Part shown: in pieces, positions 560-48,051 of the stretch
How positions within the stretch are numbered: the stretch's first letter is position 1
Layout of the letters: every line of letters begins with the position of its first letter
Source of the DNA: a virus
Lineage: Duplodnaviria; Heunggongvirae; Uroviricota; Caudoviricetes
Strand: one strand, 5' to 3'
DNA length: 64,000 nt
IMG/VR virus record: IMGVR_UViG_3300029858_000327
Position numbers and translations under genes: made by a program
The notes under the pieces: generated by a model
Database searches by the model: none
What the model was told of the DNA's origin: nothing
What the model saw: only the letters and a program-made list of their open reading frames with translations

Positions 560-898
560 CTACTTGAATGCCTTCCCTATCCTGTCACCGGATACCCAGC
601 CATCGCCGAACTGGCAGTTCTTGATGTCTACAATATAGACTCCTTTTATCTCCAGTCCTTTACCTTGTGCTTCTTCCAGGTATGTACGTGCATAAGCATC
701 AAAGTTTGCTCCAGAATAAGCGTCTACGGCAAGGATGAGAAAGTTTGCGTCGGTCAGTTCGCCTTTGTAGATTCCTATATCGGCATCCACGAGACTTTGG
801 ACGTATCTGTCAGCTTTATCCTTCTGTTCCTGGGACGGCTTGTTCCCTCCGCAGCCAAACAATGATATTGCCAGTATAGTCAATAATATTTTTCTCAT
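560..898 (-). CDS. small lipoprotein (signal peptide plus lipobox Cys)
   Basis: N-terminus MRKILLTILAISLFGCGG is hydrophobic and ends in a lipobox-like LFGC. 112 aa. Confidence 0.45.
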   Translation of the reverse strand: MRKILLTILAISLFGCGGNKPSQEQKDKADRYVQSLVDADIGIYKGELTDANFLILAVDAYSGANFDAYARTYLEEAQGKGLEIKGVYIVDIKNCQFGDGWVSGDRIGKAFK

Positions 899-912
899 AA
901 CACAGAATTTTA

Positions 913-1569
913 TTAATGGCCGATTAAATACATTTCATTTGTTATATAGTCTTCAAAAACTGTAATGATATAACTGCAGTATGTATTAATATCATTATAA
1001 ATGCATTCTATTTCACTGATTGTATATCGTCCTCCTATAACAGAGGCCAATTCTCTTCCATGTGCTATTGCATTTCGATTATCAGCTAAAGCTGCAAGTC
1101 GTCCTTTAATTTTTACATCTGTAACGACATCATGAGTAATCCCAAAAGTATTCCAGATGGACTCTAATTGACTATATTTTATATTGCCAATACTTGTAGG
1201 AAACAAACAATCTTCAATGTTTGCTATTTTAGTTCCTCCAAGCTGAGAAAATAATTCATATCTTTTAGTCCATTTTTTATCCCTTGCATCCATTATAGCG
1301 TTACATTCTTTGTGAAATATAAGCGAATATAATGTTGGTTTCAATGCATGTATGTCATATTGTCTTTTATTTAAGATACTAATACATCTTTGCACAACTG
1401 CAGTAATCGTATATTCTAAAGCCCCATATAATAACACAAAGAATGCACCTTTATGTACCTTAGAATCTAAATTTAATGACCGCATCAAATCTTCATTTTT
1501 AATTAATAGTACTAAAGATTTGGCTTCTGTTAATCTTCTAGTTGATTCAGCATTAATGTCACTAAACAT
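913..1569 (-). CDS. HEPN-like domain protein (Rx4HG motif), candidate defence RNase
   Basis: 218 aa. C-terminal DNRNAIAHGRE fits the HEPN Rx4-6H(G) signature. Overlaps and is co-oriented with the DUF262 gene downstream. Confidence 0.45.
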   Translation of the reverse strand: MFSDINAESTRRLTEAKSLVLLIKNEDLMRSLNLDSKVHKGAFFVLLYGALEYTITAVVQRCISILNKRQYDIHALKPTLYSLIFHKECNAIMDARDKKWTKRYELFSQLGGTKIANIEDCLFPTSIGNIKYSQLESIWNTFGITHDVVTDVKIKGRLAALADNRNAIAHGRELASVIGGRYTISEIECIYNDINTYCSYIITVFEDYITNEMYLIGH

Positions 1570-2623
1570 TCTCTTCTAAAAATTTATTTTTGCAGTATTC
1601 TATTCTAGAATTGACACGGTTCTTTGTATTGGTAGCCCCCGTTATAAGATTATTAAAATCTCTATTCATCACCCATTGATAAAAACCATCAAGATTAATC
1701 TGATCTTGTTCTTTGATAGCTTCTGCAGCACCAACACTAACAGCTTCAAATAATATAATAGAGGTAACAGAACGAGTTCTTGTTTTTACTATTCCGTGAT
1801 CTAACCGTGCTAACTCCTCAAAAGTTCTACAGAAAATTCTTTCATTATTATTATAATCAAAATTTCTGCTTGCACTTTCCATATAATCATTTAAAAATCC
1901 AACAACGCTATGTTCAAACTTATCTCTACCATTAAGATAAGCAAAAAACCTTAATATCAACTCTTCTTTTGTTCCATCATTTTCAGAAGATTTTGATAGC
2001 TTTATTACAGAATTAAAAGATGGATTTTCAGAAAGGGCTTTAATAAAATCATTGAACCTTCCACGATAAATACAACTTCTGATTTCCTGGTCTGATAATT
2101 TAATTCCTCCTGTATTTAATCTTTCAAACAAATCAAATCTTACAGATTTATCACTTTTATCACTTAATGTCGTAATTTTTATGGGTTTCAACAAGAAGTC
2201 AATCTGGAGAGATCGAGGTAAATCGGGGAATCTTAAACCATTAAAACTTTCCAATTTTTTTAATTCACATAAAGTAAGCGGAATATCCCGATTGATTTTG
2301 GCCCTTGCAGCAGAAATTGCATCTGCAGCGAAGTTAATGATAGAACTAAGTCTCTGCACCCCGTCAATTACCTCCCAAGTCCCATCATTATTTGTTGCCA
2401 TAAACAATGAGGGAACAGGAATACCTAAAAAAATAGACTCAATCAGTGCAGATTGTCTAGAATCATCCCATCTAAATTGCCTTTGGTATTCTGGTGCAAT
2501 ATCTATAATATTGTCATTGACCATAGATATTAATTCTTTTACACTCATATCATAAGAATTAAAATCTACTTTTCGCTTTTGGTCATTTAGTTCTGCAGTA
2601 ATATTTACCATATATAAATTCAT
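1562..2623 (-). CDS. DUF262 / ParB-like (GmrSD N-terminal type) nuclease-NTPase domain protein
   Basis: 353 aa. The VIDGVQRLSSI motif matches the DGQQR signature of DUF262. Confidence 0.55.
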   Translation of the reverse strand: MNLYMVNITAELNDQKRKVDFNSYDMSVKELISMVNDNIIDIAPEYQRQFRWDDSRQSALIESIFLGIPVPSLFMATNNDGTWEVIDGVQRLSSIINFAADAISAARAKINRDIPLTLCELKKLESFNGLRFPDLPRSLQIDFLLKPIKITTLSDKSDKSVRFDLFERLNTGGIKLSDQEIRSCIYRGRFNDFIKALSENPSFNSVIKLSKSSENDGTKEELILRFFAYLNGRDKFEHSVVGFLNDYMESASRNFDYNNNERIFCRTFEELARLDHGIVKTRTRSVTSIILFEAVSVGAAEAIKEQDQINLDGFYQWVMNRDFNNLITGATNTKNRVNSRIEYCKNKFLEENV

Positions 2624-2632
2624 ATAAATTAT

Positions 2633-3271
2633 TTATAATCTTTTCATACAGCCAAGAACTTGATATATATGTTCTATCATATTCTTAGGAAGTTCCTGAA
2701 TACCATATTCCGGAGATTTATTTGTAGGAACCAGCGTATAGCATTTCGGATCGGTTGAAGGGCCTAATCTCTTGATTGTTCGCATTCCGTTGGTTGTCAC
2801 TATTGCATACACTTCACCTAATGGAAGAAAAGACTTATCTTCTATTTTCTTTAACGCAATAATATCTCCATGAGTTATCTCAGGTTCCATTGAATGGCCT
2901 GTAACATTACACCAGCAAGTAGCTTCATTGTATTTCTTGAAATCTATCAAGTATTCAGGTTTTGCAGTCTGGTCATTTAAGACAATATCAAACCCTCCTA
3001 TAAAATCCACATTATAATAAGGTACACCTTCAGTAAAACTCTTTTTAGGAACTGAATCAAGACCATTTAATAACATACTGCCTTCACCTGTGAGCAGCCA
3101 ATTTGTGTTTAGTTCTGGATACGATTTAGATATTTTATCTATTGTACTTCTTCTTGTATTATTACCCATTTTTGAAACAGCACCATTGCTGAGACTACAC
3201 TGAAGCTCAAAAGACTGCACAGATAGACCTTTATATTCAATAAATTCAATTAATCTGCCCTTTAAATCCAT
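2633..3271 (-). CDS. CI/LexA-like phage repressor (N-terminal HTH plus C-terminal S24 peptidase)
   Basis: 212 aa. The C-terminal domain has the S24 catalytic context GHSMEP (Ser) and IKRL (Lys). Divergently oriented to the rightward early operon. Confidence 0.75.
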   Translation of the reverse strand: MDLKGRLIEFIEYKGLSVQSFELQCSLSNGAVSKMGNNTRRSTIDKISKSYPELNTNWLLTGEGSMLLNGLDSVPKKSFTEGVPYYNVDFIGGFDIVLNDQTAKPEYLIDFKKYNEATCWCNVTGHSMEPEITHGDIIALKKIEDKSFLPLGEVYAIVTTNGMRTIKRLGPSTDPKCYTLVPTNKSPEYGIQELPKNMIEHIYQVLGCMKRL

Positions 3272-5485: not shown

Positions 5486-5507
5486 CAAACAATCAAATAC
5501 TTAAACT

Positions 5508-5750: not shown

Positions 5751-5751
5751 A

Positions 5752-5964: not shown

Positions 5965-5989
5965 TATATTACTTTAAAACTATTGCGTT

Positions 5990-19031: not shown

Positions 19032-19159
19032 TGAAAACGAAATTGTATTACCTGTTCCTGGCTGCTATTATATATGTTTAAATGTTAAAATATATTGATA
19101 ATTTGCAAGAAAGAATGTAAAACTTTATTTTTGTTTAAAAGACTTTAATTGTATGTGTT

Positions 19160-23281: not shown

Positions 23282-23310
23282 AATATTACATAAGTAGAAA
23301 AGCCGGAGCG

Positions 23311-24018
23311 TTATGCTTCCGGCTTTATTTGTGATTTTATATTAATATCGGATAAATATTCTTTGGATTCTTTTATAAACTTGTCTGTTAATTCTTTAAT
23401 TTCATTCCCTTGCAACTTGGTGCATTCAGTAGCAAATGAGGTTAATTTCCGGCTGCGTGTAACATTGTCGTTAGGATTATTTAAATTTATATCTTGAATC
23501 TCAAACAATAACATTCTTTGTTTGAAAATAATTTCTGACATCTTAGATAACAGCATATGTAAATTTTCAATGTATGAGTTATCATCTATGTATAATATTA
23601 ATTTATGATAAGCCAAGGTAACCGCTAAATCATTATCTTTTTCTTTTTGAATTAATTCATTAATTATGTGATTATTATCTGCGTTGTTTCTCCAGCTTCC
23701 CATAAACGTCTCATTCCAATTCATATATTTACTCCAAAAATCAACTATAGCTTCATTTCTTTGCTGTATAAATAGAGTTTGAGCCTGAGACTGTACATTC
23801 AAAACTGACTTTAAAATCTCAATTTCTTTCATAAATTGGGTTTCTACTGATTTTATTTTTCTTGTAAAACCACTTATCGTCTTTTTTTCTATTTTTTTCT
23901 TTATTAGTTCTGCAAAAAAAACAATAATAAGTTGTATTCCAATAAACAAAGAAACAATCATCCAAATTGGATATTGTGATTCAATTAATGTTTTAGTTAT
24001 TTGTTCTTCCATAATCAA
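23311..24018 (-). CDS. single-pass membrane protein, coiled-coil (island 1, gene 4)
   Basis: 235 aa. TM at residues about 18-40. AT-rich. Confidence 0.45.
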   Translation of the reverse strand: MIMEEQITKTLIESQYPIWMIVSLFIGIQLIIVFFAELIKKKIEKKTISGFTRKIKSVETQFMKEIEILKSVLNVQSQAQTLFIQQRNEAIVDFWSKYMNWNETFMGSWRNNADNNHIINELIQKEKDNDLAVTLAYHKLILYIDDNSYIENLHMLLSKMSEIIFKQRMLLFEIQDINLNNPNDNVTRSRKLTSFATECTKLQGNEIKELTDKFIKESKEYLSDINIKSQIKPEA

Positions 24019-24875
24019 TCTTCATTTTCATCAAATACAAATGCCCCTTTTTTATATTCATTGCTCATATCTCTATTTTTATCTTGAGATGCCAAGTAAC
24101 TATCTTCGAATTTAGAAGCATATAATTCTTTCTCTCTATCTGTTGCCAATAATTCAACTCGAAGATTATTGAATATTGCATATTTTTCAATTAGAGGTTT
24201 AAACTTTTCTCTGCCATTACTTGATAGGCAATTGTAAAATAACATAATAAGTTCATATTGTGATAGACTAGCTCTCATAAGGCATGCATAATCATATTTT
24301 TTATTTTTGTCATTTGTAAAAATTGGAGCTTCGTCAATAAATTTAAATACTCGATATAGGTGTCGAAAATAATGGTCTAAGATTCCAATATCTTTATCTT
24401 CTTCATATGAAATTATTCCTCTTTCTTTAATATCATCTTTGATTCCACACAAAGGAGTGTATTTTTCTTCATATAAAGCTTTGAATATTTGTCTGCCTGA
24501 TATTTTTACTTTATTCAAAAAATTACTATTGGCATAAGCCAAGAATTGCAAGTTATTAGTTATATCTTCTTGGATTTGAATAAGCTGAAATAAGTTACTT
24601 TCAAATCGTTCTAATGCAATATCTTTTCTTTGCTGCTCATTAGCTTTAAATTGTACCCAGAAAGCAAGAAAAGTAAGTATAGCCGCTGCTATTGCAACAA
24701 ATGGCCCCATAATGCCTCCTATGGTATCTCCTATTGGACCGGTATTGCTAAAATCAGAAATACAGAATGGAAACTTTGTTAATAATATGGGGAGAAAAAG
24801 GATAATCAAAAAAAAGATACAAATCCATTTAAGATACTTCTTAAAGTCGTTCGAAAACATATTAGTGTCCATCAT
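24015..24875 (-). CDS. 2-TM membrane protein (island 1, gene 3); candidate membrane effector
   Basis: 286 aa. Two N-terminal TM helices (WICIFFLIILFLPILL and GGIMGPFVAIAAAILTFLAFWV), then a cytoplasmic domain. ATGA overlap with gene 4. Confidence 0.45.
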   Translation of the reverse strand: MMDTNMFSNDFKKYLKWICIFFLIILFLPILLTKFPFCISDFSNTGPIGDTIGGIMGPFVAIAAAILTFLAFWVQFKANEQQRKDIALERFESNLFQLIQIQEDITNNLQFLAYANSNFLNKVKISGRQIFKALYEEKYTPLCGIKDDIKERGIISYEEDKDIGILDHYFRHLYRVFKFIDEAPIFTNDKNKKYDYACLMRASLSQYELIMLFYNCLSSNGREKFKPLIEKYAIFNNLRVELLATDREKELYASKFEDSYLASQDKNRDMSNEYKKGAFVFDENED

Positions 24876-24884
24876 TTTGAATCA

Positions 24885-25712
24885 TCATTTGATTTTCTTA
24901 TTAAGGTAATTGATAAAAGCACTACAAGACACAAGCATGAATAATGCTTCTTCTGCTTGAGGAGCATTGGTATCATCCATCAGTGCATGACGAATACCTG
25001 TAGTTTTGTCATTAGTGTATCCATAAAGACATTCAAAAGCTTTCCTTAAGACGGTAGGGACAAAGACTCCTTTTTCCTCCATCTTTTTAAAGTTAAGTAC
25101 ATTTTCCCCAGTTATATTTCGGGAGATGGCTTCTACTGCAGATATGGATTCCTTTATGGAATTTCTATAATCAGCCACTGGCCTTTTAGAATATAATTCC
25201 AGTGCATTATTTAAATGTATCTTAATATTATCCTTACTTGTACTTAATGTAGTTTCTATTTCTTTAATTTCTTCTTCTGATGTAATTTCTACAATCTCCT
25301 TGTTTACAATTCTATATGCAAAGTTCAGCCTTTTAAAATGATGATTCAATTCACCAACAAAAATATCGGCTGAAATAGAAATTTGTGAATCTTTTTCACT
25401 TTTAAAATATAGGTATTTAATACAAACTTCAATAAGATCTAGTTTTTCAAACCATTCATTTCGTTCACTTTTTATATATTTAGATATTATATCAGTATAA
25501 GTAGTCCACTCAGATTTACGCATATTTAGGAAATTTGTCCAAATATATTCATCTAAGTTGTGGTATATATAAAGACAATCAACGATATTTAGTGTTTCTT
25601 TTAAAATATCATAACAAGTTAAAATAGCGTTTTGTATCCCAGGGGTAATCTTTTCCCTAATAAATACATCTGATGGTTTTATATAACCATGTCTTTCTGA
25701 AAATAGTGCCAT
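24885..25712 (-). CDS. hypothetical cytoplasmic protein (island 1, gene 2)
   Basis: 275 aa. The C-terminal region carries a TGIRHAL motif, a weak HEPN-like hint only. Confidence 0.45.
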   Translation of the reverse strand: MALFSERHGYIKPSDVFIREKITPGIQNAILTCYDILKETLNIVDCLYIYHNLDEYIWTNFLNMRKSEWTTYTDIISKYIKSERNEWFEKLDLIEVCIKYLYFKSEKDSQISISADIFVGELNHHFKRLNFAYRIVNKEIVEITSEEEIKEIETTLSTSKDNIKIHLNNALELYSKRPVADYRNSIKESISAVEAISRNITGENVLNFKKMEEKGVFVPTVLRKAFECLYGYTNDKTTGIRHALMDDTNAPQAEEALFMLVSCSAFINYLNKKIK

Positions 25713-25760
25713 AGTTTATTCTCCTTTATCTATTTTAATATATTGAAATATATAATGCCA

Positions 25761-26789
25761 TTATTTTAGCATCTTATTGAGAATTTCCACTTTTTCTTTA
25801 AACTCATCTATCAATTTCGCTTCATTAATATGAATTCCTTTTATATCTACAGAACAGGATTCACAAAACCTTTTATCTACTGGATTTTTATGGCCATGCT
25901 CACAAATAAACTTATCTTCTTCCTTCTTACTAAAAACACCAGATTTGACCTTTTCTATTTTGCCAGTATCCGGCAGATTACTATAAAAATCACATATTTT
26001 ATTCATCAAATTTACTTCGTTAGCATCGTAATAATCTGATTTTATAGGTAAGAATTTTATACCCTCGTGTATGTTTTGACTACAAACCTTTAATATGGAT
26101 GTTGCATCAAATAAATTGCATTTTTTTATTAATGATATAAGTAAATCTTTCCTATCCACCTCGATATATAATTCGTACAATAAAGGAACCATCAGTGATT
26201 TAGAATACGTTCCCAATACGTTTTCAATCATTTCTGCCTCTTTGATATATAAGCCTAATTTATTTCTAATATACAAATCCACAAGTTCCTTAATTATTTC
26301 TTTTTGCGGGTTCTCAATAAGAAACTGTACCCAATCTTCTTTTATTTGCTCTTTATTTTGAAGTTGCTTTTGGATAAAACGCTTTTTGATTTCCTTGTCC
26401 AAATCAGACTGACTAACAGTATTGGTTTTAATATTATTATCATAATCGAGGCTATACTCAATTTTACAAGCTGTACCGGATACAGATACCATAAACATTG
26501 ATTTATCTTTTCCTGATATTTCATCGAAATCAACTTTGAATCCAATAATTGCATTTGCACCAATTCTAATAGCTTTATTTTTAAGATCCTTGGATGCCTC
26601 ATTATAGATATATTCCAATTTTCTTCTATATGACTCTGATTTACCCCCAAAAAAATCAGAGAAAGAAGCTGCAAAATCAGAAAAAATATTTGTTCCAACT
26701 ACTATATTACTGCAAATAACATCAATATATTGCCTAATGATTCCATTTTCAATTCTTTCTGTTGTTGAGATTATAAATCTGTCTTTCAT
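25761..26789 (-). CDS. YbjQ/DUF74 (UPF0145)-domain protein with C-terminal zinc ribbon (island 1, gene 1)
   Basis: The N-terminal ~110 aa align convincingly with E. coli YbjQ (NIFSDFAASFSDFFGGKSESYRRKLE...IGANAIIGFKVDFDE...SMFMVSVSGTA). C-terminal CEHGHKNPVDKRFCESCS. Confidence 0.6.
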   Translation of the reverse strand: MKDRFIISTTERIENGIIRQYIDVICSNIVVGTNIFSDFAASFSDFFGGKSESYRRKLEYIYNEASKDLKNKAIRIGANAIIGFKVDFDEISGKDKSMFMVSVSGTACKIEYSLDYDNNIKTNTVSQSDLDKEIKKRFIQKQLQNKEQIKEDWVQFLIENPQKEIIKELVDLYIRNKLGLYIKEAEMIENVLGTYSKSLMVPLLYELYIEVDRKDLLISLIKKCNLFDATSILKVCSQNIHEGIKFLPIKSDYYDANEVNLMNKICDFYSNLPDTGKIEKVKSGVFSKKEEDKFICEHGHKNPVDKRFCESCSVDIKGIHINEAKLIDEFKEKVEILNKMLK

Positions 26790-26881: not shown

Positions 26882-27295
26882 TTATATCGGAGAAATTAAC
26901 GTATTTACTTTTTTAAAAGAATCGAATTTTTCCTTATCCAGAGTTCCACCTATTTTACTTAATCTTTCTTCAAAATAGCGGACTATATTTTTATATTTGT
27001 TTTCATAGAATTCATTCTTCATATCTTCTTGTGTTTCATATTCTTTCTGTGCTTTTTCATAGAGCTCAATAACACTGAGATAAAACGCTCTAAAATATCT
27101 GAGTCTCGCTTCTTCTATCTCTCCTTTCAAAGTCAAAATTTGAGCCTCCCTTATCAGCAAATCTTCAACCGTCTGTTTTTGAACAATACAGCTTTTGATC
27201 GCATTTACATTATTCGTCATAACCCAAACCTTGAAAAAAAGAATAATCTGTAGGATACTAAAAATCAGTATTATAATGGATAAAACATCTATCAT
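26882..27295 (-). CDS. small N-terminal-TM protein (paralog of 43706..44059)
   Basis: Shares ILQIILFFK(V/I)W(V/G)MTN(N/D) with the 43706 ORF. Same position downstream of the HTH-Zn-ribbon regulator. Confidence 0.45.
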   Translation of the reverse strand: MIDVLSIIILIFSILQIILFFKVWVMTNNVNAIKSCIVQKQTVEDLLIREAQILTLKGEIEEARLRYFRAFYLSVIELYEKAQKEYETQEDMKNEFYENKYKNIVRYFEERLSKIGGTLDKEKFDSFKKVNTLISPI

Positions 27296-27312
27296 AGAAT
27301 TACATTTAAAAA

Positions 27313-27570
27313 TTAGACTTCTGGATTTAACTTAATTTCCTTTCCACAATGAGGACAACGTATCACTCCCTCTTTAGGCTTATCAAAGAGGTCTGGTATT
27401 TCAACATCTAAAGCATCTGCAATTTCAGCGAGCCTATCCATATTAAATTTATTACGAGAGACAGCTTGTGAAAAGGAGACAGCTTGTATGCCTAATTTGT
27501 CAGCAAGTTGAGCTTGCGTTATTCCCCTCTCCTTACAAAGTTCTTTAATTCTTAATTCTGTATTTGCCAT
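27313..27570 (-). CDS. XRE-family HTH regulator with C-terminal zinc ribbon (paralog of 44079..44324)
   Basis: Likely start MANTELRIKEL. The 38-codon upstream extension in the ORF track is AT-rich low-complexity sequence. HTH ITQAQLADKLG. Zn ribbon CPHCGKEIKLNP, identical to the paralog. Confidence 0.6.
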   Translation of the reverse strand: MANTELRIKELCKERGITQAQLADKLGIQAVSFSQAVSRNKFNMDRLAEIADALDVEIPDLFDKPKEGVIRCPHCGKEIKLNPEV

Positions 27571-27805
27571 AAGATTATAGTTTTGAGTGTAAATATATAC
27601 AATATAGTTTATATGCGAAATAAAATTTGAAAAATTATTTATTAATGCTATTGTATAGGTATACAAAAACAAATTTAGCATCAATACTATATAATCAATG
27701 TTAAATATAGCATATATAAATAATATACACTTTTTTTATTTAGCATATATACTATATATTTGCACCATCAAACAAGAAGTAATAACAAATTAACCACATA
27801 CGAAT
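27571..27805. promoter_or_regulatory. divergent promoter region with TAGCATATATA direct repeats (putative operators)
   Basis: Three copies of TAGCAT(C/A)TATA within the AT-rich 230 bp. Confidence 0.35.
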
Positions 27806-28096
27806 ATGAAGACGATAGAAAAGATGCTTGCAGATGCAATCTTAAAGAGTATTGACAGCAATGAAGGCACATTCTGTGTTGATGCAGAAGACAATGAGAA
27901 TCTAATAGAAGTTGAAGGACACTACAAAGTAAAAGGATACATAGATGATAAGTTCTATCACAGCATGGATATATGGGTTACTACTGAAGCATCAGTAACC
28001 ATAGACAAGGTTAGAGCTTATGACAAAAATGAGAACGAGGTAGAAGTTGAATGTGACATTAAGGCTATCGAAGAATACGTAGAAATTAACTTATAA
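27806..28096 (+). CDS. hypothetical acidic protein
   Basis: 96 aa. Confidence 0.4.
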   Translation: MKTIEKMLADAILKSIDSNEGTFCVDAEDNENLIEVEGHYKVKGYIDDKFYHSMDIWVTTEASVTIDKVRAYDKNENEVEVECDIKAIEEYVEINL

Positions 28097-29056: not shown

Positions 29057-29129
29057 CGCGGGTTAGAGCAGTGGTCAGCTCGTCACTTTGACTTGGTGAA
29101 GGCCGGTGGTTCGAATCCATCACCCGCAA
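29057..29129 (+). tRNA. tRNA, anticodon probably GAC (Val), with a C1-A72 mismatch
   Basis: D-arm GAGC-AGTGGTCA-GCTC. Anticodon stem TCACT/GGTGA with loop TTGACTT. T-arm GGTGG-TTCGAAT-CCATC. Acceptor CGCGGGT/ACCCGCA. Confidence 0.5.
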
Positions 29130-29152
29130 CTAACATTTAACTTTACACGATT

Positions 29153-41811: not shown

Positions 41812-42753
41812 TTGAAAATGGATAATATTAAGTCATTTATTTATTTGGATGAATATAAAATGTACTCTATATCTTCCCAACTTTTTGAAGGATTAACAGA
41901 ATATATATTAAGTGGTGAAAAAGAATCCATCACAGAATCTGAACAACAAAAAGGTAGCTTGGGTAGTGGTAGAGTTATGGGAGATATTCTCGTCAAAGAA
42001 AAGGATTCTTCTGAAAAACGTTTTTTACATGATTATGCTTTTGAATTATTAGAAAAAGAATTAGAAGCAAGAGGAAAGTTATATACTCCATGTAATACTG
42101 ACACAATTGAAGATATTATTGATAAAAGCTTTATAAGAATTAAAGGAAAAATATTTTTCAATGACTACAAGGCTTCAACAGATACTTTGCTAAATTTTAA
42201 TACATTAGGTGAGGGACTTGGTTATATCCAATATTTTGACAATTCAGGAAAAGTAAAGGATGAATTAAAAGAACTAACAAATAAGGCTAAAGATAGAGAG
42301 CAAAGGAACAAAGTTGGGCTTCTAAAAAAAGAAATCGATAAAAGGTTTGAAGAATATTTAAAAGGTAATGGTTTAAGATTAGATGAGAAGTGGCTCGATC
42401 ATTTAAAAAATATCGTGTTATACGGCTATAAAAACAATCTTGAAATCTTACTCCCTGCTCCTAACAATATTTTATTTTCATCTGTACTAAATAGAGATTT
42501 TTTAAAAGAAAATATAGATTCATTGATATACAAGTATTCTAGAAAGAGCGAAGTTGAATTTACAATTATTGGTACTATTACACAAATAGGTAATAGTAGA
42601 GCAAATTTGGATGATGTTCATGGAGAGGGGAATGCGTTTAAATCAGCTAATCGAAATATCCTCAACATATTAGCAAAGTTGGAAGATTCCTTTACCAGTA
42701 GATTAGAAAATGAATGTATAATTGACCCAATAGCTATATATCGGGAGTTGTGA
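41812..42753 (+). CDS. hypothetical protein (island 2)
   Basis: 313 aa, AT-rich. Ends at a bidirectional terminator (AAAGCCGGATAATTTCCGGCTTT). Confidence 0.4.
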   Translation: MKMDNIKSFIYLDEYKMYSISSQLFEGLTEYILSGEKESITESEQQKGSLGSGRVMGDILVKEKDSSEKRFLHDYAFELLEKELEARGKLYTPCNTDTIEDIIDKSFIRIKGKIFFNDYKASTDTLLNFNTLGEGLGYIQYFDNSGKVKDELKELTNKAKDREQRNKVGLLKKEIDKRFEEYLKGNGLRLDEKWLDHLKNIVLYGYKNNLEILLPAPNNILFSSVLNRDFLKENIDSLIYKYSRKSEVEFTIIGTITQIGNSRANLDDVHGEGNAFKSANRNILNILAKLEDSFTSRLENECIIDPIAIYREL

Positions 42754-42788
42754 TTTTCCTTATTAATAAAGCCGGATAATTTCCGGCT

Positions 42789-43277
42789 TTATTTTGATTC
42801 CATTTCCATTATTGTACTTTTTATAGCATTTACGTGTTCTAAATGGCAGGCTCTTGATATTAGATGGATATAAATATGCCTATCTGCTTTAATTTCAATA
42901 GGCGTATTTATTATGTTGATAATACTATTTGATGATATATACTTATCAAACATTCTTGAGAATAGGAGACTTCTGAACTTTTGAGGCGTCAAAGCCTTAT
43001 CCCTTCTTGGAATATCATGCATATCATCACAATAAAAATACAATATAAGGTTATTGTTATCATTAAGAACTTTGCCTATGATATCTGATATTTTAAGCAA
43101 TATTCCAATATCGGTTGGATTCTCCCCTTTAACCCTCTCTAAGGTAACATCTGCTATTTCTATATCCCGAATTGATTTACGCACTTCACACGGAATTATA
43201 TCTTGGTTGAAAGGAGACAATATAATTCGATATTCATCATTCGATTTTGAACTAATAGAAATGGAAATTTCCTCCAT
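42789..43277 (-). CDS. hypothetical protein (island 2)
   Basis: 162 aa. Confidence 0.4.
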   Translation of the reverse strand: MEEISISISSKSNDEYRIILSPFNQDIIPCEVRKSIRDIEIADVTLERVKGENPTDIGILLKISDIIGKVLNDNNNLILYFYCDDMHDIPRRDKALTPQKFRSLLFSRMFDKYISSNSIINIINTPIEIKADRHIYIHLISRACHLEHVNAIKSTIMEMESK

Positions 43278-43286
43278 CTAAAAAAA

Positions 43287-43496
43287 TTATGCTTTTATTT
43301 CGATATTAAATGCTTTTTGATTGCGCAATTTTTCTTGCTGAGATAATTTCCTGTCTCTCAGTTGATTTATAAAGTTTAATAAGCCCTTAGAAGGTTTCTC
43401 TATTATCAATGTCTCTTGTGTATAAGTAGAAGTTTTCATATCCAGTAATGTAACTTTGTTACGAAATGATGTTGCAAATATAACAATAAACATCAA
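43287..43496 (-). CDS. hypothetical small protein (island 2)
   Basis: 69 aa or shorter from an internal Met. Confidence 0.25.
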   Translation of the reverse strand: MMFIVIFATSFRNKVTLLDMKTSTYTQETLIIEKPSKGLLNFINQLRDRKLSQQEKLRNQKAFNIEIKA

Positions 43497-43705: not shown

Positions 43706-44059
43706 TTATTTATAGTATATAATTTTATAATCATTCAGTTCAGATAAACTATTAGAATCATATACAACTAACTTCCCTTTTATTAAAAGTATTACTTCAT
43801 TATCCATCAATTTGGGAACTAAACTTTGTGCCATATTTTTCTCCTCTTCTGAAACATCTTTTCCCCATGTTCCTTTTAAAAGGTTAATGGCATTTTCATT
43901 AGGAATTTTATTGTGTTTAGCTATTGTTTTCTGCTGGATTTCTTTTTCAATAATGCTCCTTATCCTGCTAATGTCGTTTGTCATTCCCCATATTTTGAAG
44001 AATAGGATAATTTGTAAGATGCCGAATACCAGCATAACAATAGAAAGAAATTCCATCAT
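43706..44059 (-). CDS. small N-terminal-TM protein (paralog of 26882..27295)
   Basis: Shared TM motif ILQIILFFKIWGMTND. Confidence 0.45.
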   Translation of the reverse strand: MMEFLSIVMLVFGILQIILFFKIWGMTNDISRIRSIIEKEIQQKTIAKHNKIPNENAINLLKGTWGKDVSEEEKNMAQSLVPKLMDNEVILLIKGKLVVYDSNSLSELNDYKIIYYK

Positions 44060-44078: not shown

Positions 44079-44324
44079 TTATACATTCGGATTCAATTTT
44101 ATCTCCTTTCCGCAATGAGGGCAATGTATAACCCCCTCTTTAGGTTTTTCAAAGAGTTCTGTTACTGGCACGCCTAAAGCAGCGGCGATTTGTTCTAATC
44201 TCTTTAATGGTGGGTTTCCATTATCTCCCATGGCGATACTTAACCCAGTTTCAGTCATACCGATTTTTGAAGCCAGTTCTTTTGCGGTAATTCCTTTTTC
44301 TCGCAACAATTCTTTAATTCTCAT
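44079..44324 (-). CDS. XRE-family HTH regulator with C-terminal zinc ribbon
   Basis: HTH ITAKELASKIG. CPHCGKEIKLNP is identical to the 27313 paralog. Confidence 0.6.
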   Translation of the reverse strand: MRIKELLREKGITAKELASKIGMTETGLSIAMGDNGNPPLKRLEQIAAALGVPVTELFEKPKEGVIHCPHCGKEIKLNPNV

Positions 44325-44503
44325 TTAAATTTGATTTTATAGTACAAAAATATCTATTACTTAAATAATAGGCAAATAATTTAAATGTCAATTTTATATT
44401 TAACTTTTATTGTCTATAAAGACTTGTGATATAATTTAAATATCAGTTATATTTGCGGTGTAAAATTTAAACAGCATTTAAAGAACTGATAAATATAAGA
44501 ACT

Positions 44504-44830
44504 ATGGCAACAGAAAAGAGAAACCTATTAAAAGAGATTATGAGCCTTGCTTGGTCATTTGCACGCAAGAACGGTTATTCAATGAGTGAAGCTTTGAAAT
44601 GTGCGTGGACTAATATCAAACTTCGTGCATTGCTTCATAAAAAAGTGGTTGAGTTCTATTTCAAAAAAACAGACGGCACGCTGCGTCAGGCTTTCGGTAC
44701 TTTAATGAGTGGTAGAATACCAGAAACAAAGGGTACAAAGAAAACAGCAGATAACTGCCAAGTGTACTTCGATTGTGAAAAAGAAGAATGGCGTTGTTTC
44801 AAAAAATGCAACCTTATGAAGATAGCTTAG
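44504..44830 (+). CDS. hypothetical protein (paralog of 3409..3729)
   Basis: See 3409. Confidence 0.5.
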   Translation: MATEKRNLLKEIMSLAWSFARKNGYSMSEALKCAWTNIKLRALLHKKVVEFYFKKTDGTLRQAFGTLMSGRIPETKGTKKTADNCQVYFDCEKEEWRCFKKCNLMKIA

Positions 44831-44854
44831 TATTAACATTAAAACAATATAGAT

Positions 44855-45211
44855 ATGGATTTTTCAGAACTTAGTAAAAAAATGGGTGGTCTTACTGCAG
44901 AGCAAATTTTTGAGTTAGCCACACTTGGTAAAGGTATTTTAAACATGTATGGCAGTGTAGACTTGGCTTCTAACCTAACTAACCTTGTAAGCCATATAAT
45001 TACAGTTGATGATTTTGATATCGAAGAAAATAAGTATGCGATTGATGCTGTTTTACGTATATCAAAAATGCTGTCAGATTTAAACGCAAAATGTTGGGGT
45101 GAGCGAAAAACAATGCTCGGACTTACTGGCGTACATATGGATAATGCAATCTATGGATTAGGTAATGCAGAAAAGATAGAAGATATAAATCTAGTCAGAA
45201 AAGCATCATAA
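44855..45211 (+). CDS. hypothetical protein
   Basis: 118 aa. Confidence 0.35.
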   Translation: MDFSELSKKMGGLTAEQIFELATLGKGILNMYGSVDLASNLTNLVSHIITVDDFDIEENKYAIDAVLRISKMLSDLNAKCWGERKTMLGLTGVHMDNAIYGLGNAEKIEDINLVRKAS

Positions 45212-45735
45212 AAACTCTCACACACGATTATGATTCTTAGAATAAGACCGCCACCTTATTGTCAATAGCGAGAATTTAATAATATCATTAACTTAAAAGT
45301 TTCATTATGAGCAAGAGATTTAAACTAGCAGTATTGCCTAAAGAAAAGCAACTGGATAATGTCAAGTATGCTTTGAGAATTGAAAATCCATCTGCACTAG
45401 GTAATGTATATGGATTAACAGAAGAAGAACTAAAAGAACTTCAAAGTCTTATTAATGAGTCATTGAAACAGTAAAAATGGATATAACGGTTATCAGACCA
45501 CCACCGATAATTTACCTGCACACAATTATTTTGAAACAATCAGCCAAATGTTTGTTCTAAACACGGTAATCTTTAGGACAAATATTTGGCGGTTGGTAAC
45601 TTTGCTTTAGAACAAAATGCGCTTCGTGGCTGTAGCGTTACAAAGATATTCAAGGCATTTCTTTCAAGGGGTAAACAGCCACTTTAGACCTCTTATAAGA
45701 TTTGCCTTTTTATATGTCAGGCGTGATAGGTCAAG

Positions 45736-45779
45736 GCAAGCCATTCAGGTGTGCATGGGTTCAAATCCCAGCTTGCTAC
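45736..45779 (+). other. tRNA-like minihelix (acceptor stem plus T-arm only)
   Basis: GCAAGC-CATTCAGGTGTGC-ATGGG-TTCAAAT-CCCA-GCTTGC then TACA. A canonical T-loop closed directly by a 6-bp acceptor-like stem. No D-arm or anticodon arm. Confidence 0.3.
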
Positions 45780-45864
45780 AAATTCAGTCAAAATAAAATC
45801 CCCAAAGGCGGAAGTGACTGAGCTGCCAATGGGGATATGTCAAATTTCAAATTTGGACAAAAAT

Positions 45865-46653
45865 ATGAATAAAATCCAGATTTTCCAAAATGAGCAATTT
45901 GGAAAGGTGAGAATTACTATGAATGAGAATGATGAACCGTTATTTTGCTTGGCAGATGTAGCAAAAGCACTTGGCTATTCAAACCCTGCAAAAGCGGTTA
46001 TAGACCATTGCAAGGGGGTTACTGTTTTGGAAACCCCTACTCAGAGTGGTATACAACCTATAAAATATGGCAAAGAGAGCGAAGTTTATAGATTAACAAT
46101 GAAATCAAAACTGCCCAATGCAGAAAAATTTCAAGATTGGGTTTGTGATGAAGTTCTACCCTCAATTCGCAAGCATGGTGCATACATGACACAAGAAACG
46201 CTTGAAAAGGCTTTGACCTCACCTGATTTCTTAATTCGGCTTGCAACCAACCTGAAAGAAGAAAAGCAGAAACGAATTGAAGCCGAACAAAAGGCAGAAC
46301 TTGCAGAACAAACAATAAAGTCCAATGCACCTAAAGTCCTATTTGCTGATGCAGTTTCAACTTCTCAACGTTCATGCTTGGTAGCCGAGCTTGCAAAGAT
46401 ATTGCAACAGAATGGCGTGAATATAGGTCAGAACCGTTTGTTCACTTGGATGCGTGAAAATGGCTACTTATGCTCAAAAGGGCAATATTACAACCAGCCC
46501 ACACAAAAGTCTATGGATTTAGGACTGTTTGAACTGAAGCAGACGACAATAAACAAGCCAGATGGTTCAATACTTGTTTCTACAACCACAAAAGTAACAG
46601 GTAAAGGTCAAGTTTACTTTGTGAATAAGTTTTTGGGTAAAGATGCAGCTTGA
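45865..46653 (+). CDS. antirepressor (Bro-N domain plus KilA-C/Ant C-terminal domain)
   Basis: IFQNEQFGKVRI...PLFCLADVAKALGYSNP is Bro-N. Start moved to 45865 because the upstream in-frame extension overlaps the tRNA-like element. Confidence 0.6.
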   Translation: MNKIQIFQNEQFGKVRITMNENDEPLFCLADVAKALGYSNPAKAVIDHCKGVTVLETPTQSGIQPIKYGKESEVYRLTMKSKLPNAEKFQDWVCDEVLPSIRKHGAYMTQETLEKALTSPDFLIRLATNLKEEKQKRIEAEQKAELAEQTIKSNAPKVLFADAVSTSQRSCLVAELAKILQQNGVNIGQNRLFTWMRENGYLCSKGQYYNQPTQKSMDLGLFELKQTTINKPDGSILVSTTTKVTGKGQVYFVNKFLGKDAA

Positions 46654-47558
46654 TTATGAGAGAAGCATTTAAAATAACGGCAGGTTTGCGATTTGGCAGA
46701 CTTGTCGTTCTAAAACAGGTAGAACGAAAATCTGATGATAAAGACAAGCATTTCAAGTGGCTTTGCCAATGCGATTGCGGCAAAACTTGTGTTGTTCGTT
46801 CAAGTAATTTGAGAAATGGGATAACAAAGAGTTGTGGGTGTTCAAAGTTTGATATAAAAGATATTACAGGTCAAAGGTTTGGAAGATTGATAGCTTTAAA
46901 ACACGTTGGATTCGCAAGTAATCATGTTGCATTATGGAAATGTAAATGCGATTGCGGTAAGATGATAGTCGCCAGAGAATGCAATTTACATAGTGGCATA
47001 ACTAAAAGTTGTGGCTGCTTAAATGTGGAAAGAACAAAAGAAACTAATATAAAACACGGTAAAACACATACAAGGCTGTATAATATATGGTCTAAGATGA
47101 AAGAACGCTGTTGCAATCCTACAAGAAAAGCATATAAAAATTATGGTAAAAAAGGTGTTAGTGTTTGTGATGAATGGCTAAACGATTTTCAGAAGTTTTG
47201 CGATTGGGCAATAGTAAACGGTTATAAAGAAAATCTTACAATAGACAGAATAAATTCAGATGGCAATTATGAGCCTAAGAATTGCAGATGGGTAACTTTA
47301 AGTGAAAATGTAAGGCAGAAATATAAATCTGACTTTATAACTGTTGGCAATAAATCTTTAACTATACATGATTGGTCGCAACGGTTAAATCTATCTCAAG
47401 ATACTTTGCGAAACAGATATAAAGAATTTGGCAAAAAATGGGTTGAAGAAGCGATAAAAACTGTATTAGAAACAGGTGATAATAGCCATATCTATAAGCG
47501 GAAAGAATATGCTAATGGTAGAATAAAACATCGAAAAAACATAAATACGCAACAATAG
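46650..47558 (+). CDS. HNH-like homing endonuclease with duplicated Cys-rich N-terminal modules
   Basis: Two copies of GRL..LK...W.C.CDCGK.....N...GITKSCGC. C-terminus TIDRINSDGNYEPKNCRWVTLSEN is an HNH_3-like box with His replaced by Arg. Confidence 0.45.
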   Translation: MIMREAFKITAGLRFGRLVVLKQVERKSDDKDKHFKWLCQCDCGKTCVVRSSNLRNGITKSCGCSKFDIKDITGQRFGRLIALKHVGFASNHVALWKCKCDCGKMIVARECNLHSGITKSCGCLNVERTKETNIKHGKTHTRLYNIWSKMKERCCNPTRKAYKNYGKKGVSVCDEWLNDFQKFCDWAIVNGYKENLTIDRINSDGNYEPKNCRWVTLSENVRQKYKSDFITVGNKSLTIHDWSQRLNLSQDTLRNRYKEFGKKWVEEAIKTVLETGDNSHIYKRKEYANGRIKHRKNINTQQ

Positions 47559-47604
47559 TTTATTTGTTCGGTATTCATTCCTCTAAAATCTGAATGTTAA
47601 TGAA

Positions 47605-48051
47605 ATGAATAGTAATTTCAAACCATTAATATTCAGATTTTTATATATGCGATTTAAGGGTGATATTTCAGGATTGGACGAACTTCAGGAACGGATTGAC
47701 GATGCGTACTTCTCTGTTCTTTCAGAAGTTGGCAGGAATGCGACACGGAACGCAAAGAATCAAAAGACATTTCAAAACAGGACAGGGAACCTTGCCAATG
47801 CAAACGGTGGGTGCGTTGTCCGCAATGGTCAGATTGTGGATATGTGGGTGGAAACGGACGGCTCCCATCCCGATGCAGTGAAGAAAACAGAGAATTTGCT
47901 TATCTATTCTGAAAAGCCCAAAGACGGACTTTATTTGGCCAATGGAATGGAATATGCGAGCTATGTGGAAAGTAAAGGGTTTGAAGTGATACTAACAAAT
48001 GGGGTCTTATTTGCGGAACGAAATATTAATAAGAAACTTAATATAAAATGA
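47605..48051 (+). CDS. structural-module protein, paralog of 39275..39571
   Basis: See 39275. Confidence 0.4.
   Translation: MNSNFKPLIFRFLYMRFKGDISGLDELQERIDDAYFSVLSEVGRNATRNAKNQKTFQNRTGNLANANGGCVVRNGQIVDMWVETDGSHPDAVKKTENLLIYSEKPKDGLYLANGMEYASYVESKGFEVILTNGVLFAERNINKKLNIK

What the first reader, a model, noticed from the sequence alone, without database searches (positions are those of the whole stretch)
26882..27684. Duplicated HTH-Zn-ribbon regulator + ILQIILFFKxWxMTN small TM protein cassette marks both accessory islands
27313-27570 and 44079-44324 encode regulators with near-identical C-terminal ribbons (GVI(R/H)CPHCGKEIKLNP). 26882-27295 and 43706-44059 share an unusual N-terminal TM motif. 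Both cassettes sit at the head of an AT-rich cargo block, and each has an AT-rich upstream region with its own repeat set (TAGCATATATA versus ATTTAAAT). This looks like a modular, portable control unit for morons. The TM partner could itself be a toxin or abortive-infection effector held in check by the regulator.
Basis: seen in the sequence. Interest (0 to 1): 0.65.

Follow-up and report, generated by a model that had tools for sequence, protein, structure and literature searches.

The report
Repressor-headed cargo slots in Bacteroides prophage
Two small repressor genes in a gut Bacteroides prophage each head a swap-in slot for defence genes, and next to each sits a member of a large, unstudied family of tiny membrane proteins; the layout is a known kind of phage "moron" hotspot, not a fixed two-gene unit.

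Summary
Two 81-85 aa XRE-type regulators share 56% identity (E=6e-31) and an almost identical tail, KPKEGVI(R/H)CPHCGKEIKLNP. Each is followed 17-19 nt later by a small one-pass membrane protein carrying the motif ILQIILFFK(V/I)W.MTN. Both pairs lie on the minus strand in blocks of 29% G+C.

The window is a Bacteroides/Phocaeicola temperate phage. The regulators are type-specific repressors: 18-bp palindromes flank a divergent promoter pair and co-vary with the HTH type in related phages. They head two positionally conserved slots, one at the early/late junction and one between tail genes and the tape measure gene. Slot cargo is highly variable and includes Abi-type, SIR2-STAND and dCTP-deaminase genes, lipoproteins and unknowns.

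The pair is not obligate. Only 5 of 80 regulator loci carry the membrane gene, and only about 5 of 117 membrane-gene loci carry the regulator tail. Even so, the regulator tail and the membrane gene do move together as a recombination block.

The membrane protein belongs to an unannotated Bacteroidales family of 1,712 clusters. Its anchor is nearly invariant and its C-termini are unrelated. It usually closes repressor-headed prophage operons. Its function is untested; superinfection exclusion or defence is the best guess. Island 2 resembles P22 immI plus sieA, and the HK97 gene 15 moron.

The parts
27313..27570 (-). REG1: 85-aa XRE/Cro-CI-type HTH repressor with a C-terminal single CPHCG knuckle.
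   Evidence: Pfam HTH_26 3.9e-10 and HTH_3 1.4e-7. PHROG 'transcriptional regulator/repressor'. 56% identical to REG2.
26882..27295 (-). TM1: 137-aa single-pass membrane protein. It has the conserved N-terminal anchor and a helical TPR/MIT-like C-terminal domain.
27571..27805 (.). Divergent control region of island 1. It holds three 18-bp palindromic operators (27603-27620, 27674-27691, 27739-27756) plus a half-site near 27705-27722, and Bacteroides-type -7 boxes (TATATTTG at 27755-27762 on +; TATATTTA-like at 27588-27595 on -).
   Evidence: The same palindrome occurs 2.1 times per region in 37 related type-1 loci and 0 times in 17 type-2 loci. The promoter boxes were read from the sequence and are an inference.
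23311..26789 (-). Cargo of island 1: YbjQ_1-domain protein 25761-26789, AbiJ_NTD4/PDC-S32 24885-25712, putAbiC/AbiP-like 24015-24875, and a 235-aa membrane protein 23311-24018.
   Evidence: Pfam and PADLOC. G+C is 28.6%. A hairpin terminator lies at 23299-23326.
44079..44324 (-). REG2: 81-aa XRE-type HTH repressor with the same CPHCG tail.
   Evidence: Pfam HTH_26 6.3e-9 and HTH_3 1.1e-8. 209 close homologues, named 'helix-turn-helix domain-containing protein' in Phocaeicola/Bacteroides records.
43706..44059 (-). TM2: 117-aa single-pass membrane protein. It has the same anchor as TM1 and an unrelated small alpha/beta C-terminal domain.
   Evidence: AF2 pLDDT 78. It is followed by a weak terminator-like hairpin at 43675-43689(-).
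44325..44503 (.). Divergent control region of island 2. It holds AATTTAAAT-type repeats at 44378-44391 and 44433-44446, and -7 boxes (TATATTTG at 44448-44455 on +; TATTTTTG at 44345-44352 on -).
   Evidence: The repeat core is conserved in L003/L004. The promoter boxes were read from the sequence and are an inference.
44504..48051 (+). Right arm of island 2: WYL_2 protein 44504-44830, ORFs of 118 aa and 55 aa, Bro-N/KilAC antirepressor 45751-46653, HNH endonuclease 46650-47558, and a 148-aa ORF.
   Evidence: Pfam and PHROGs. The same arm accompanies the regulator in L084, L145-147 and L246-248.
41812..43496 (.). Remaining AT-rich cargo of island 2: DUF6414 protein 41812-42753(+), a 162-aa ORF 42789-43277(-), and a 69-aa ORF 43287-43496(-).
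   Evidence: Pfam DUF6414 5.5e-22; nothing for the others. This block is absent from BS-TP2, where the homologue of 40597-40980 directly precedes the tape measure gene.
560..3271 (-). Primary immunity operon, given for comparison: S24-type CI repressor 2633-3271, GmrSD_N/NsnA-like 1562-2623, HEPN 913-1569, and BDI_0842 560-898. It is divergent from WYL_2 at 3409-3729.
   Evidence: Pfam and PADLOC. It has the same repressor-then-defence-cargo logic but no TM-family gene.

Best explanation
The window is a temperate Bacteroides/Phocaeicola siphophage. Besides its S24-type CI repressor it carries two small, heteroimmune XRE-type repressors, REG1 and REG2. Each binds its own set of palindromic operators in a ~200-bp divergent promoter region. 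Each thereby autoregulates a leftward operon that runs against the lytic genes. It probably also keeps the rightward promoter shut during lysogeny. For REG1 that promoter leads to the late-region genes. For REG2 it leads to a WYL_2 ... Bro-N/KilAC antirepressor ... HNH operon.

The leftward operons are moron or defence slots at two fixed genome positions. Their content is exchanged by homologous recombination. One recurrent crossover point lies inside the conserved codons for the regulator tail (..LFDKPKEGVIxCPHCGKEI..). The single CPxCG knuckle most likely serves dimerisation, possibly through a shared metal site.

The gene after each regulator belongs to a large, unannotated Bacteroidales family. 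Members have a nearly invariant N-out/C-in transmembrane anchor (FGILQIILFFKIWGMTND) fused to many unrelated cytoplasmic domains. This gene is one frequent occupant or boundary of such repressor-driven operons, not the regulator's partner. Because it is co-expressed with repressors in prophages, its most likely role is a lysogen-expressed inner-membrane protein that blocks or aborts superinfection.

Shown: the domains, the operator/HTH covariation, the slot conservation, the cargo diversity, the mosaic breakpoints, and the family's size and contexts. Inferred: DNA binding and repression, expression in lysogens, membrane topology, the role of the knuckle, and any exclusion or defence activity.
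For: HTH domains are present and there is no S24 domain; only the HTH part matches solved structures (SinR, C.BclI, 434 repressor).

Operators: the only zero-mismatch sites in the 64 kb are at 27674 and 27739. There is reciprocal covariation: the type-1 palindrome occurs 2.1 times per region in 37 type-1 regions and 0 times in 17 type-2 regions, the type-2 palindrome occurs 1.35 versus 0 times, and shuffles give 0.05 or less.

Slots: the regulator lies between homologues of 21964-22401 and the ASCH/DUF3560 genes, or between homologues of 40597-40980 and the tape measure gene, in dozens of IMG/VR phages. The first downstream gene falls into 27 sequence clusters, at least 25 of them unrelated real genes. 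These include dCTP-deaminase-like, SIR2-STAND and DUF2971 proteins, and an 871-aa protein in which I read HD and GHKL-ATPase motifs by eye, with no family scan run.

Cargo in the window includes PDC-S32/AbiJ-like, AbiP/putAbiC-like and NsnA-like proteins.

Mosaicism: identity to L135/L137 jumps from ~55% to 98-100% at ~27400, inside REG1, and in L135 it falls again right after TM1. Pseudogene remnants of the regulator tail sit upstream of an identical TM gene in L250/L251. At that locus the slot between an HTH gene and the TM gene is empty, holds a 163-aa gene, or holds a Gp49/HTH toxin-antitoxin pair.

TM family: 399 word-seeded hits and 1,712 clusters at 50% identity with E<=1e-3. It is spread across Bacteroidales. 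Eight residues are invariant within the 31-sequence alignment A3 - Q, I, L, F, F, K, M and T of Q.ILFFK...MT. It is the last gene of its same-strand chain in 82 of 126 loci, and an XRE HTH lies upstream in the chain in 34 of 46 viral loci.

Island 2 has an antirepressor arm. Its position matches that of HK97 gene 15 (PMC3594210). P22 sieA lies next to mnt (PMC10883804).
Against: There are no expression data, so lysogenic expression rests on orientation, promoter-like boxes and analogy. The sigma-70 promoter scan is not informative for Bacteroides.

The terminator after TM2 is weak (z=-0.9). Whether the 69-aa and 162-aa ORFs belong to the REG2 transcript is therefore open.

The TM protein has no match in any defence library, and its structure gives no functional clue.

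In the genome-anchored sample only 14 of 61 TM operons had a recognisable HTH upstream. Some neighbours are housekeeping genes such as iPGM, OMP decarboxylase and PhoH. The family is therefore not strictly prophage-bound.

The related-locus lists hold the best 80 hits per scan and over-represent a few abundant lineages. Gene calls in those loci are my own longest-ORF heuristics.
Confidence: 0.6

Rival explanations
1. The regulator and the TM protein form a dedicated toxin-antitoxin or abortive-infection pair. The HTH protein would be the antitoxin or transcriptional brake, and the small hydrophobic protein would be a membrane-damaging toxin.
For: The operon order, HTH first and small hydrophobic protein second with a 17-19 nt gap, resembles type II TA operons. 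The 65-aa family members look like small membrane toxins, with a TM segment plus a charged tail. The neighbours are Abi-type genes.
Against: Only 5 of 80 regulator loci have the TM gene, and the others have lipoproteins, enzymes or STAND proteins. Only 5 of 117 TM loci have the regulator tail upstream. Most TM genes follow unrelated cargo at gaps of 4-23 nt. At the P0045 locus a genuine Gp49/HTH TA pair is inserted between the HTH gene and the TM gene.
Confidence: 0.07
2. REG1 and REG2 are lytic-cycle regulators (Cro-like or timing switches). The leftward operons would then be expressed during infection rather than from the prophage, and the cargo would be anti-host or takeover genes rather than lysogen defence.
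For: They are small, lack an S24 or other sensor domain, and sit at junctions between transcription modules. The phage already has a CI-type repressor.
Against: They are transcribed against the lytic genes and co-oriented with Abi-type genes that would harm the phage's own lytic cycle. In related phages the TM gene sits in the CI operon itself. For BV01, a Bacteroides prophage I did not compare with the window, the repressor is the most transcribed prophage gene (PMC8354205).
Confidence: 0.15
3. The TM family is lysis-related (holin, antiholin or spanin-like), not an exclusion or defence protein.
For: It is a single TM helix with a charged tail of 50-140 aa, and it is abundant in phages.
Against: It is never next to an endolysin in the loci inspected. 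It lies in repressor-headed operons at the prophage edge or in moron slots. BS-TP2 annotates a holin and an endolysin elsewhere. The family also occurs beside housekeeping genes.
Confidence: 0.05
4. The resemblance of the two cassettes is a recent duplication within this genome and has no wider meaning.
For: There are two copies in one genome with near-identical junction peptides.
Against: In the regulator tail, 11 of 24 codons differ synonymously, and so do 11 of 30 codons in the TM anchor. The HTH parts and operators differ. Each cassette type is found separately in other phages.
Confidence: 0.02

Closest known systems
HK97 gene 15 moron (gp15 superinfection exclusion protein; YebO-like)
   Same: It is a small inner-membrane protein expressed from a moron that lies between the tail-chaperone and tape-measure genes. 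Its N-terminal region is conserved with a wider family and its C-terminus is diverged (PMC3594210). Island 2 occupies the equivalent position, upstream of the tape measure gene 48053-52051, and TM2 has the same conserved-N, diverged-C pattern.
   Different: There is no detectable sequence relation (no Pfam hit at E<=0.1). Here the gene is driven by its own repressor gene with operators. The family is specific to Bacteroidales. The exclusion phenotype has not been tested.
P22 immI region (mnt / arc-ant) with the adjacent sieA
   Same: It is a second immunity region far from the main repressor. A small repressor is transcribed divergently from an operon that ends in an antirepressor, and a lysogen-expressed inner-membrane exclusion gene lies beside the small repressor (sieA-orf59a-mnt; PMC10883804; the immI layout is from my own knowledge). 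Island 2 has REG2-TM2 divergent from WYL_2 ... Bro-N/KilAC antirepressor.
   Different: Mnt and Arc are ribbon-helix-helix proteins, whereas REG2 is an XRE HTH with a CPxCG tail. SieA has three TM segments, whereas TM2 has one. The first gene of the antirepressor operon is a WYL_2 protein of unknown function.
Prophage and satellite hotspots of antiviral systems (P2/P4; Rousset et al. 2022)
   Same: These are fixed genome positions with conserved flanks and highly variable defence cargo (PMC9122126, seen; details from my own knowledge). Slots 1 and 2 behave the same way.
   Different: Here one flank is a dedicated repressor gene whose 3' codons act as a crossover point, and a small membrane-protein gene often forms the other boundary.
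SinR-type small XRE repressors with a C-terminal oligomerisation module
   Same: The best solved-structure matches are the DNA-binding domains of SinR, C.BclI and 434 repressor. Both have a short protein made of an N-terminal HTH and a C-terminal tail that is not DNA-binding.
   Different: The tail is a single CPxCG knuckle followed by a beta-strand-like segment, not a helical hook. No solved structure covers it.
Lactococcal Sie2009-type and mycobacteriophage repressor-adjacent defence genes
   Same: Small N-terminally anchored membrane proteins or variable defence genes are encoded beside the repressor and expressed from the prophage (from my own knowledge, not checked here).
   Different: The host phylum is different and there is no sequence relation. 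Here the anchor is nearly invariant across an entire bacterial order while the rest of the protein varies.

Membership tests
XRE / Cro-CI helix-turn-helix regulators (Pfam HTH_3, HTH_26) | An N-terminal ~55-residue HTH domain that matches the family profile above its cut-off. | tested here: met
   REG1: HTH_26 40.3 bits (cut-off 22) and HTH_3 31.9 bits (cut-off 23). REG2: 36.4 and 35.4 bits.
Zinc-ribbon proteins | Two CxxC/CxxH knuckles that together supply four metal ligands within one chain. | tested here: not met
   There is only one CP[HN]CG knuckle per protein in all 30 tail variants seen. Pfam Zn_ribbon hits are below cut-off (15-20 bits against 25-27). No other conserved Cys or His is present.
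LexA/CI-type cleavable repressors | A C-terminal Peptidase_S24 domain. | tested here: not met
   It is absent from REG1 and REG2, which are 81-85 aa. It is present in the separate repressor at 2633-3271.
P22 immI-type secondary immunity region | A small repressor gene transcribed divergently from an operon that encodes an antirepressor. | tested here: met
   REG2 at 44079-44324(-) faces WYL_2 ... Bro-N + KilAC (ANT 6.5e-34) at 45751-46653(+). The same layout is seen in L084, L145-147 and L246-248. It holds for island 2 only; island 1 has no antirepressor arm.
P22 immI-type secondary immunity region | The repressor is a ribbon-helix-helix protein (Mnt/Arc), and repression of ant has been demonstrated. 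| tested here: not met
   The fold class is HTH, not RHH. Repression itself cannot be tested with these tools.
HK97 gp15 / YebO superinfection exclusion proteins | Sequence membership in the YebO family. | tested here: not met
   There is no Pfam hit of any kind for TM1. TM2 has only a spurious HTH_60 hit at E=0.016.
HK97 gp15 / YebO superinfection exclusion proteins | A small inner-membrane protein encoded by a moron just upstream of the tape measure gene. | tested here: met
   Island 2 lies between the tail genes (40597-40980 = BS-TP2 gp75) and the tape measure gene at 48053-52051. TM2 has one predicted TM helix. Membrane location itself is an inference.
HK97 gp15 / YebO superinfection exclusion proteins | Blocks DNA entry of superinfecting phage. 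| not testable with these tools
   This needs plating and DNA-entry assays.
Type II toxin-antitoxin pair | The two genes co-occur obligatorily as a conserved pair. | tested here: not met
   5 of 80 regulator loci have the TM gene. 5 of 117 TM loci have the regulator tail.
Moron (independent transcription unit added to a phage operon) | Composition that differs from the flanks, absence from close relatives, and its own promoter and terminator. | tested here: inconclusive
   Composition is met (29% against 42% G+C). Absence from a relative is met. The -7 boxes are only read from the sequence. One good terminator lies at 23299-23326, and the one after TM2 is weak. Expression has not been tested.
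Known anti-phage defence proteins (PADLOC) | The TM protein matches a defence-system model. | tested here: not met
   There are no hits for TM1 or TM2, whereas the neighbours hit PDC-S32, AbiP and NsnA.

The most novel reading that the evidence does not exclude
The nearly invariant helix FGILQIILFFKIWGMTND would be a membrane-embedded effector or docking module, either an oligomeric pore or a clamp on a conserved Bacteroidales inner-membrane protein used for phage DNA entry. The hundreds of unrelated cytoplasmic C-terminal domains would be interchangeable sensors. This would make a one-protein, polymorphic exclusion or abortive-infection family specific to gut Bacteroidales. In parallel, the single-knuckle tail of the small repressors would form an intersubunit Cys4 metal or redox site. 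Oxidation or metal loss would then derepress the antirepressor operon, giving these anaerobe phages a route to induction that does not depend on DNA damage.
Probability: 0.15. Interest if true: 0.75.

Novelty: new variant of a known kind. Interest (0 to 1): 0.5.

Why it matters
Temperate phages of Bacteroides and Phocaeicola are among the most abundant elements of the human gut, and almost nothing is known about how they regulate lysogeny or protect their hosts.

This locus yields three testable things. First, a predicted operator code for a family of small repressors that head defence-gene slots. Second, a concrete recombination junction, the repressor tail, that explains how cargo is swapped between phages and between positions in a genome. 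Third, a very large, unannotated family of tiny membrane proteins (about 1,700 clusters) that rides in repressor-driven prophage operons across the whole order.

If that family excludes or aborts phage infection, it would be a major and so far invisible determinant of phage susceptibility in the gut. The slots are also a ready source of uncharacterised candidate defence genes.

Tried and rejected
1. Family searches for TM1 and TM2 in Pfam, PHROGs, NCBIfam and PADLOC gave nothing.
2. A full-text literature search for the motif QIILFFK found no paper. Searches on Bacteroides prophage exclusion and hotspots found nothing specific to this system.
4. The sigma-70 promoter scan gave counts no higher than shuffles, and it is not appropriate for Bacteroides.
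5. The hairpin after TM2 is no more stable than shuffled sequence (z=-0.9), so I do not claim a terminator there.
6. The TA-pair reading was rejected on co-occurrence counts.
7. A recent intragenomic duplication was rejected on synonymous differences.
8. Conservation of the junction at the DNA or RNA level, as a regulatory RNA or an att-like site, was rejected as the main cause. The conservation is in amino acids, with many silent changes. The retained tail remnants in L250/L251 do leave open the possibility that this stretch also carries the TM gene's promoter.
9. tblastn of TM2 against 50,697 deposited phage genomes found only one unannotated, start-less remnant, in BS-TP2.
Full report
**1. 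Observation.**

Both gene pairs exist as described. REG1 is 27313-27570(-), 85 aa counted from the ATG. REG2 is 44079-44324(-), 81 aa. They share 56% identity (E=6e-31) and an almost identical tail, KPKEGVI(R/H)CPHCGKEIKLNP.

TM1 is 26882-27295(-) and TM2 is 43706-44059(-). Each starts 17-19 nt after its regulator's stop codon. They share only their first ~60 residues (46% identity, E=8e-15), including ILQIILFFK(V/I)W.MTN, and their C-terminal halves are unrelated.

The resemblance is not a recent duplication. In the last 24 regulator codons, 11 differ synonymously and 3 change the amino acid. In the first 30 TM codons, 11 differ synonymously.

Both cassettes lie in blocks of 28.6-29.2% G+C, against 42-43% for the backbone.

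Two corrections apply. The 'ribbon' is a single CPxCG knuckle. The window has four AT-rich blocks, and only two carry the cassette.

**2. Context.**

The window is a temperate Bacteroides/Phocaeicola siphophage, distantly related to Bacteroides phage BS-TP2. Its layout is as follows.

- An S24-type CI repressor at 2633-3271(-), followed by GmrSD_N/NsnA-like and HEPN genes. This operon is divergent from a WYL_2 gene and an HNH endonuclease.
- Early genes up to about 23.3 kb.
- Island 1, all on the minus strand: REG1, TM1, a YbjQ-domain protein, AbiJ_NTD4/PDC-S32, putAbiC/AbiP-like, and a 235-aa membrane protein.
- Late genes from 27.8 to 41.7 kb.
- Island 2: DUF6414, ORFs of 162 aa and 69 aa, then TM2 and REG2. 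These are divergent from WYL_2, two small ORFs, a Bro-N/KilAC antirepressor, an HNH endonuclease and a 148-aa ORF.
- The tape measure gene at 48053-52051, followed by the remaining tail genes.
- An integrase fragment at the right end.

**3. The regulators are type-specific repressors of divergent promoter pairs.**

Only the HTH part matches known families and solved structures: HTH_3/HTH_26, and SinR, C.BclI and 434 repressor.

I grouped the regulators from 80 related IMG/VR loci by their HTH sequence. Each group has its own repeated palindrome in the ~200-bp upstream region.

- For the REG1 type the palindrome is TATAGYA-N4-TRCTAWA.
- In the window it occurs at 27603, 27674 and 27739, and zero-mismatch matches occur nowhere else in the 64 kb.
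- Across 37 distinct type-1 upstream regions it occurs 2.1 times per region. Across 17 type-2 regions it occurs 0 times.
- The type-2 palindrome, ATACTAATA-N7-TATTAGTAT, occurs 1.35 times per region in type-2 regions and never in type-1. Shuffles give 0.05 or less.

The sites abut Bacteroides-type -7 boxes (TAnnTTTG) on both strands; I read these from the sequence, so they are an inference. REG2 has its own AATTTAAAT-type repeats, and their core is conserved in L003/L004.

Binding and repression are inferred, not shown.

**4. The regulators head positionally conserved slots with variable cargo.**

In related phages the regulator sits in one of two places.

- Slot 1 lies between homologues of 21964-22401 and the ASCH/DUF3560 genes.
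- Slot 2 lies between homologues of the tail gene 40597-40980 and the tape measure gene. In slot 2 the WYL_2 ... antirepressor ... HNH arm faces the regulator.

The first gene after the regulator falls into 27 sequence clusters among the 80 loci, at least 25 of them unrelated real genes. These include lipoproteins, membrane proteins, a dCTP-deaminase-like protein, a SIR2-STAND-TPR protein and a DUF2971 protein. They also include an 871-aa protein in which I read HD and GHKL-ATPase motifs by eye, with no family scan run.

Only 5 of the 80 loci carry the TM-family gene.

Regulator types move between slots. L084 has a REG1-type regulator in slot 2.

BS-TP2 lacks island 2 altogether. It has a homologous regulator followed by a single gene in slot 1. 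It also has a WYL_2/regulator module at a third position, between the portal and head genes.

**5. The TM protein belongs to a large, unannotated family.**

- A word-seeded search found 399 relatives.
- A profile search of 1.84 billion cluster representatives found 1,712 at E<=1e-3 and 848 at E<=1e-10. The best 150 listed are 51-216 aa long.
- The family spans Bacteroides, Phocaeicola, Prevotella, Alistipes, Parabacteroides, Dysgonomonas, Muribaculaceae and others.
- Within the 31-sequence alignment A3, the anchor FGILQIILFFKIWGMTN[DN][IV] has eight invariant residues - Q, I, L, F, F, K, M and T of Q.ILFFK...MT. It is fused to many unrelated C-termini: TPR-like, SH3-like, small alpha/beta, or only a charged tail in a common 65-aa form.
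- No Pfam, PHROG, NCBIfam or PADLOC model matches.
- The charge distribution, with an acidic N-terminus and K/R after the helix, suggests an N-out/C-in topology. This is an inference.

Context across loci is as follows.

- In 126 dereplicated loci it is the last gene of its same-strand chain in 82, and it has upstream same-strand genes in 107.
- In the viral sample, 34 of 46 such chains contain an XRE HTH gene. This is usually an S24-type CI at the head of the operon, and only 3 have the HTH gene directly adjacent.
- Immediate upstream neighbours include GmrSD, a CAP12/Pycsar TIR protein, T5orf172/DUF4041, Mrr_N, lambda Bor and DUF3761. Some are housekeeping genes.

**6. Even so, the regulator tail and the TM gene travel together in one sublineage.**

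Against L135 and L137, identity is ~50-60% across the HTH codons, the operators and the divergent genes. It jumps to 98-100% at about 27400, inside the codons for ..DLFDKPKEG.., and stays at that level through TM1. In L135 it collapses again directly after the TM1 stop codon, where the cargo differs.

At the P0045 locus an identical TM gene follows an HTH gene in three different arrangements: directly, after a 163-aa gene, or after a Gp49/HTH toxin-antitoxin pair. In the latter two, a pseudogene remnant of the regulator tail (..LFDKPKEGVIHCPHCGKEI*) still sits just upstream of the TM gene.

The conserved tail codons are therefore a recurrent crossover point, and the cargo slot is bracketed by a repressor gene and a TM gene. 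This junction is rare overall, occurring in 5 of 117 distinct TM loci.

**7. Mechanism proposed.**

REG1 and REG2 are secondary, heteroimmune repressors. They autoregulate leftward, lysogen-expressed moron operons and probably silence the opposing promoters.

Island 2 is organised like P22 immI. A small repressor faces an operon ending in an antirepressor, with a membrane protein gene beside the repressor. It also sits where the HK97 gene 15 exclusion moron sits.

The single knuckle is most simply a dimerisation element.

The TM protein is most likely a lysogen-expressed inner-membrane protein involved in exclusion or abortive defence. I give the Sie/defence role itself about 0.35-0.4. The 0.6 confidence is for the whole architectural statement.

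**8. What is not shown.**

None of the following has been demonstrated: expression, DNA binding, metal binding, topology, or any phenotype. The related-locus samples are the best 80 hits of each scan and are dominated by a few abundant lineages. Gene calls in those loci come from my own ORF heuristics.

**9. Verdict.**

This is a known kind of feature, a phage moron or defence hotspot with a secondary immunity-type regulator. It appears here in a Bacteroidales-specific variant with three points of interest: an operator code, a crossover point inside the repressor tail, and a very large uncharacterised membrane-protein family.

Noticed in passing
window 3409-4226 and 44504-47558; L002 (BS-TP2) 5510-6788: A WYL_2 (Sm-like SH3) protein occupies the 'Cro position' opposite the main CI repressor, opposite REG2, and opposite BS-TP2 gp62. 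In all three cases an HNH endonuclease gene lies in the same arm (3729-4226; 46650-47558; BS-TP2 gp59). Homing by the endonuclease could explain how the module reaches new positions.
   Followed up: partly
window 913-2623: The CI operon carries a GmrSD_N/NsnA-like (PD-T4-2_A-like) gene and a RiboL-PSP-type HEPN gene directly behind the repressor. This is a likely two-gene defence system expressed along with immunity.
   Followed up: partly
window 19032-20930: A fourth AT-rich block (30% G+C) lies inside the early region. It holds a 335-aa membrane protein (19160-20167, +) and a minus-strand ORF with a C-terminal TM segment (within 20520-20930). It has neither a regulator nor a TM-family gene.
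   Followed up: no
window 5410-5486 and 29057-29130: ARAGORN reports a tRNA-like gene with an odd four-base anticodon call (gggt), and a tRNA-Val(GAC). The latter lies just beside slot 1.
   Followed up: no
L001 (BS-TP2, PQ571275) 9018-9190, minus strand: An unannotated remnant of the 65-aa TM-family gene, lacking a start codon, lies after the CI repressor gp15 and gp14 and next to a DDE transposase. It was the only match to the family in 50,697 deposited phage genomes.
   Followed up: partly
L250 2100-2250; L251 1960-2080: Pseudogene remnants of the regulator's C-terminal coding region, one with a premature stop, are retained just upstream of an intact TM gene. Either the events are recent or this stretch also serves as the TM gene's promoter.
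   Followed up: partly
L246 10797-11042; L247 9961-10206: Close relatives carry an 81-aa gene with an Acb2/Tad1-hairpin (anti-CBASS/anti-Thoeris sponge) Pfam hit among the head-tail connector genes. I did not check whether the window has it near 39284-39568.
   Followed up: no
window 27806-28096 and 28130-28771: The first genes opposite REG1 are a 96-aa ORF with no family and a DUF3560 protein. In several relatives a WYL_2/antirepressor arm stands there instead (L149, L092, L161-162).
   Followed up: partly
L009 and L246-248, about 6354-6921: In slot 2 of some relatives two HTH regulators stand in tandem before the TM-family gene: a CPHCG-tailed one, then a 96-aa one with a different tail.
   Followed up: no
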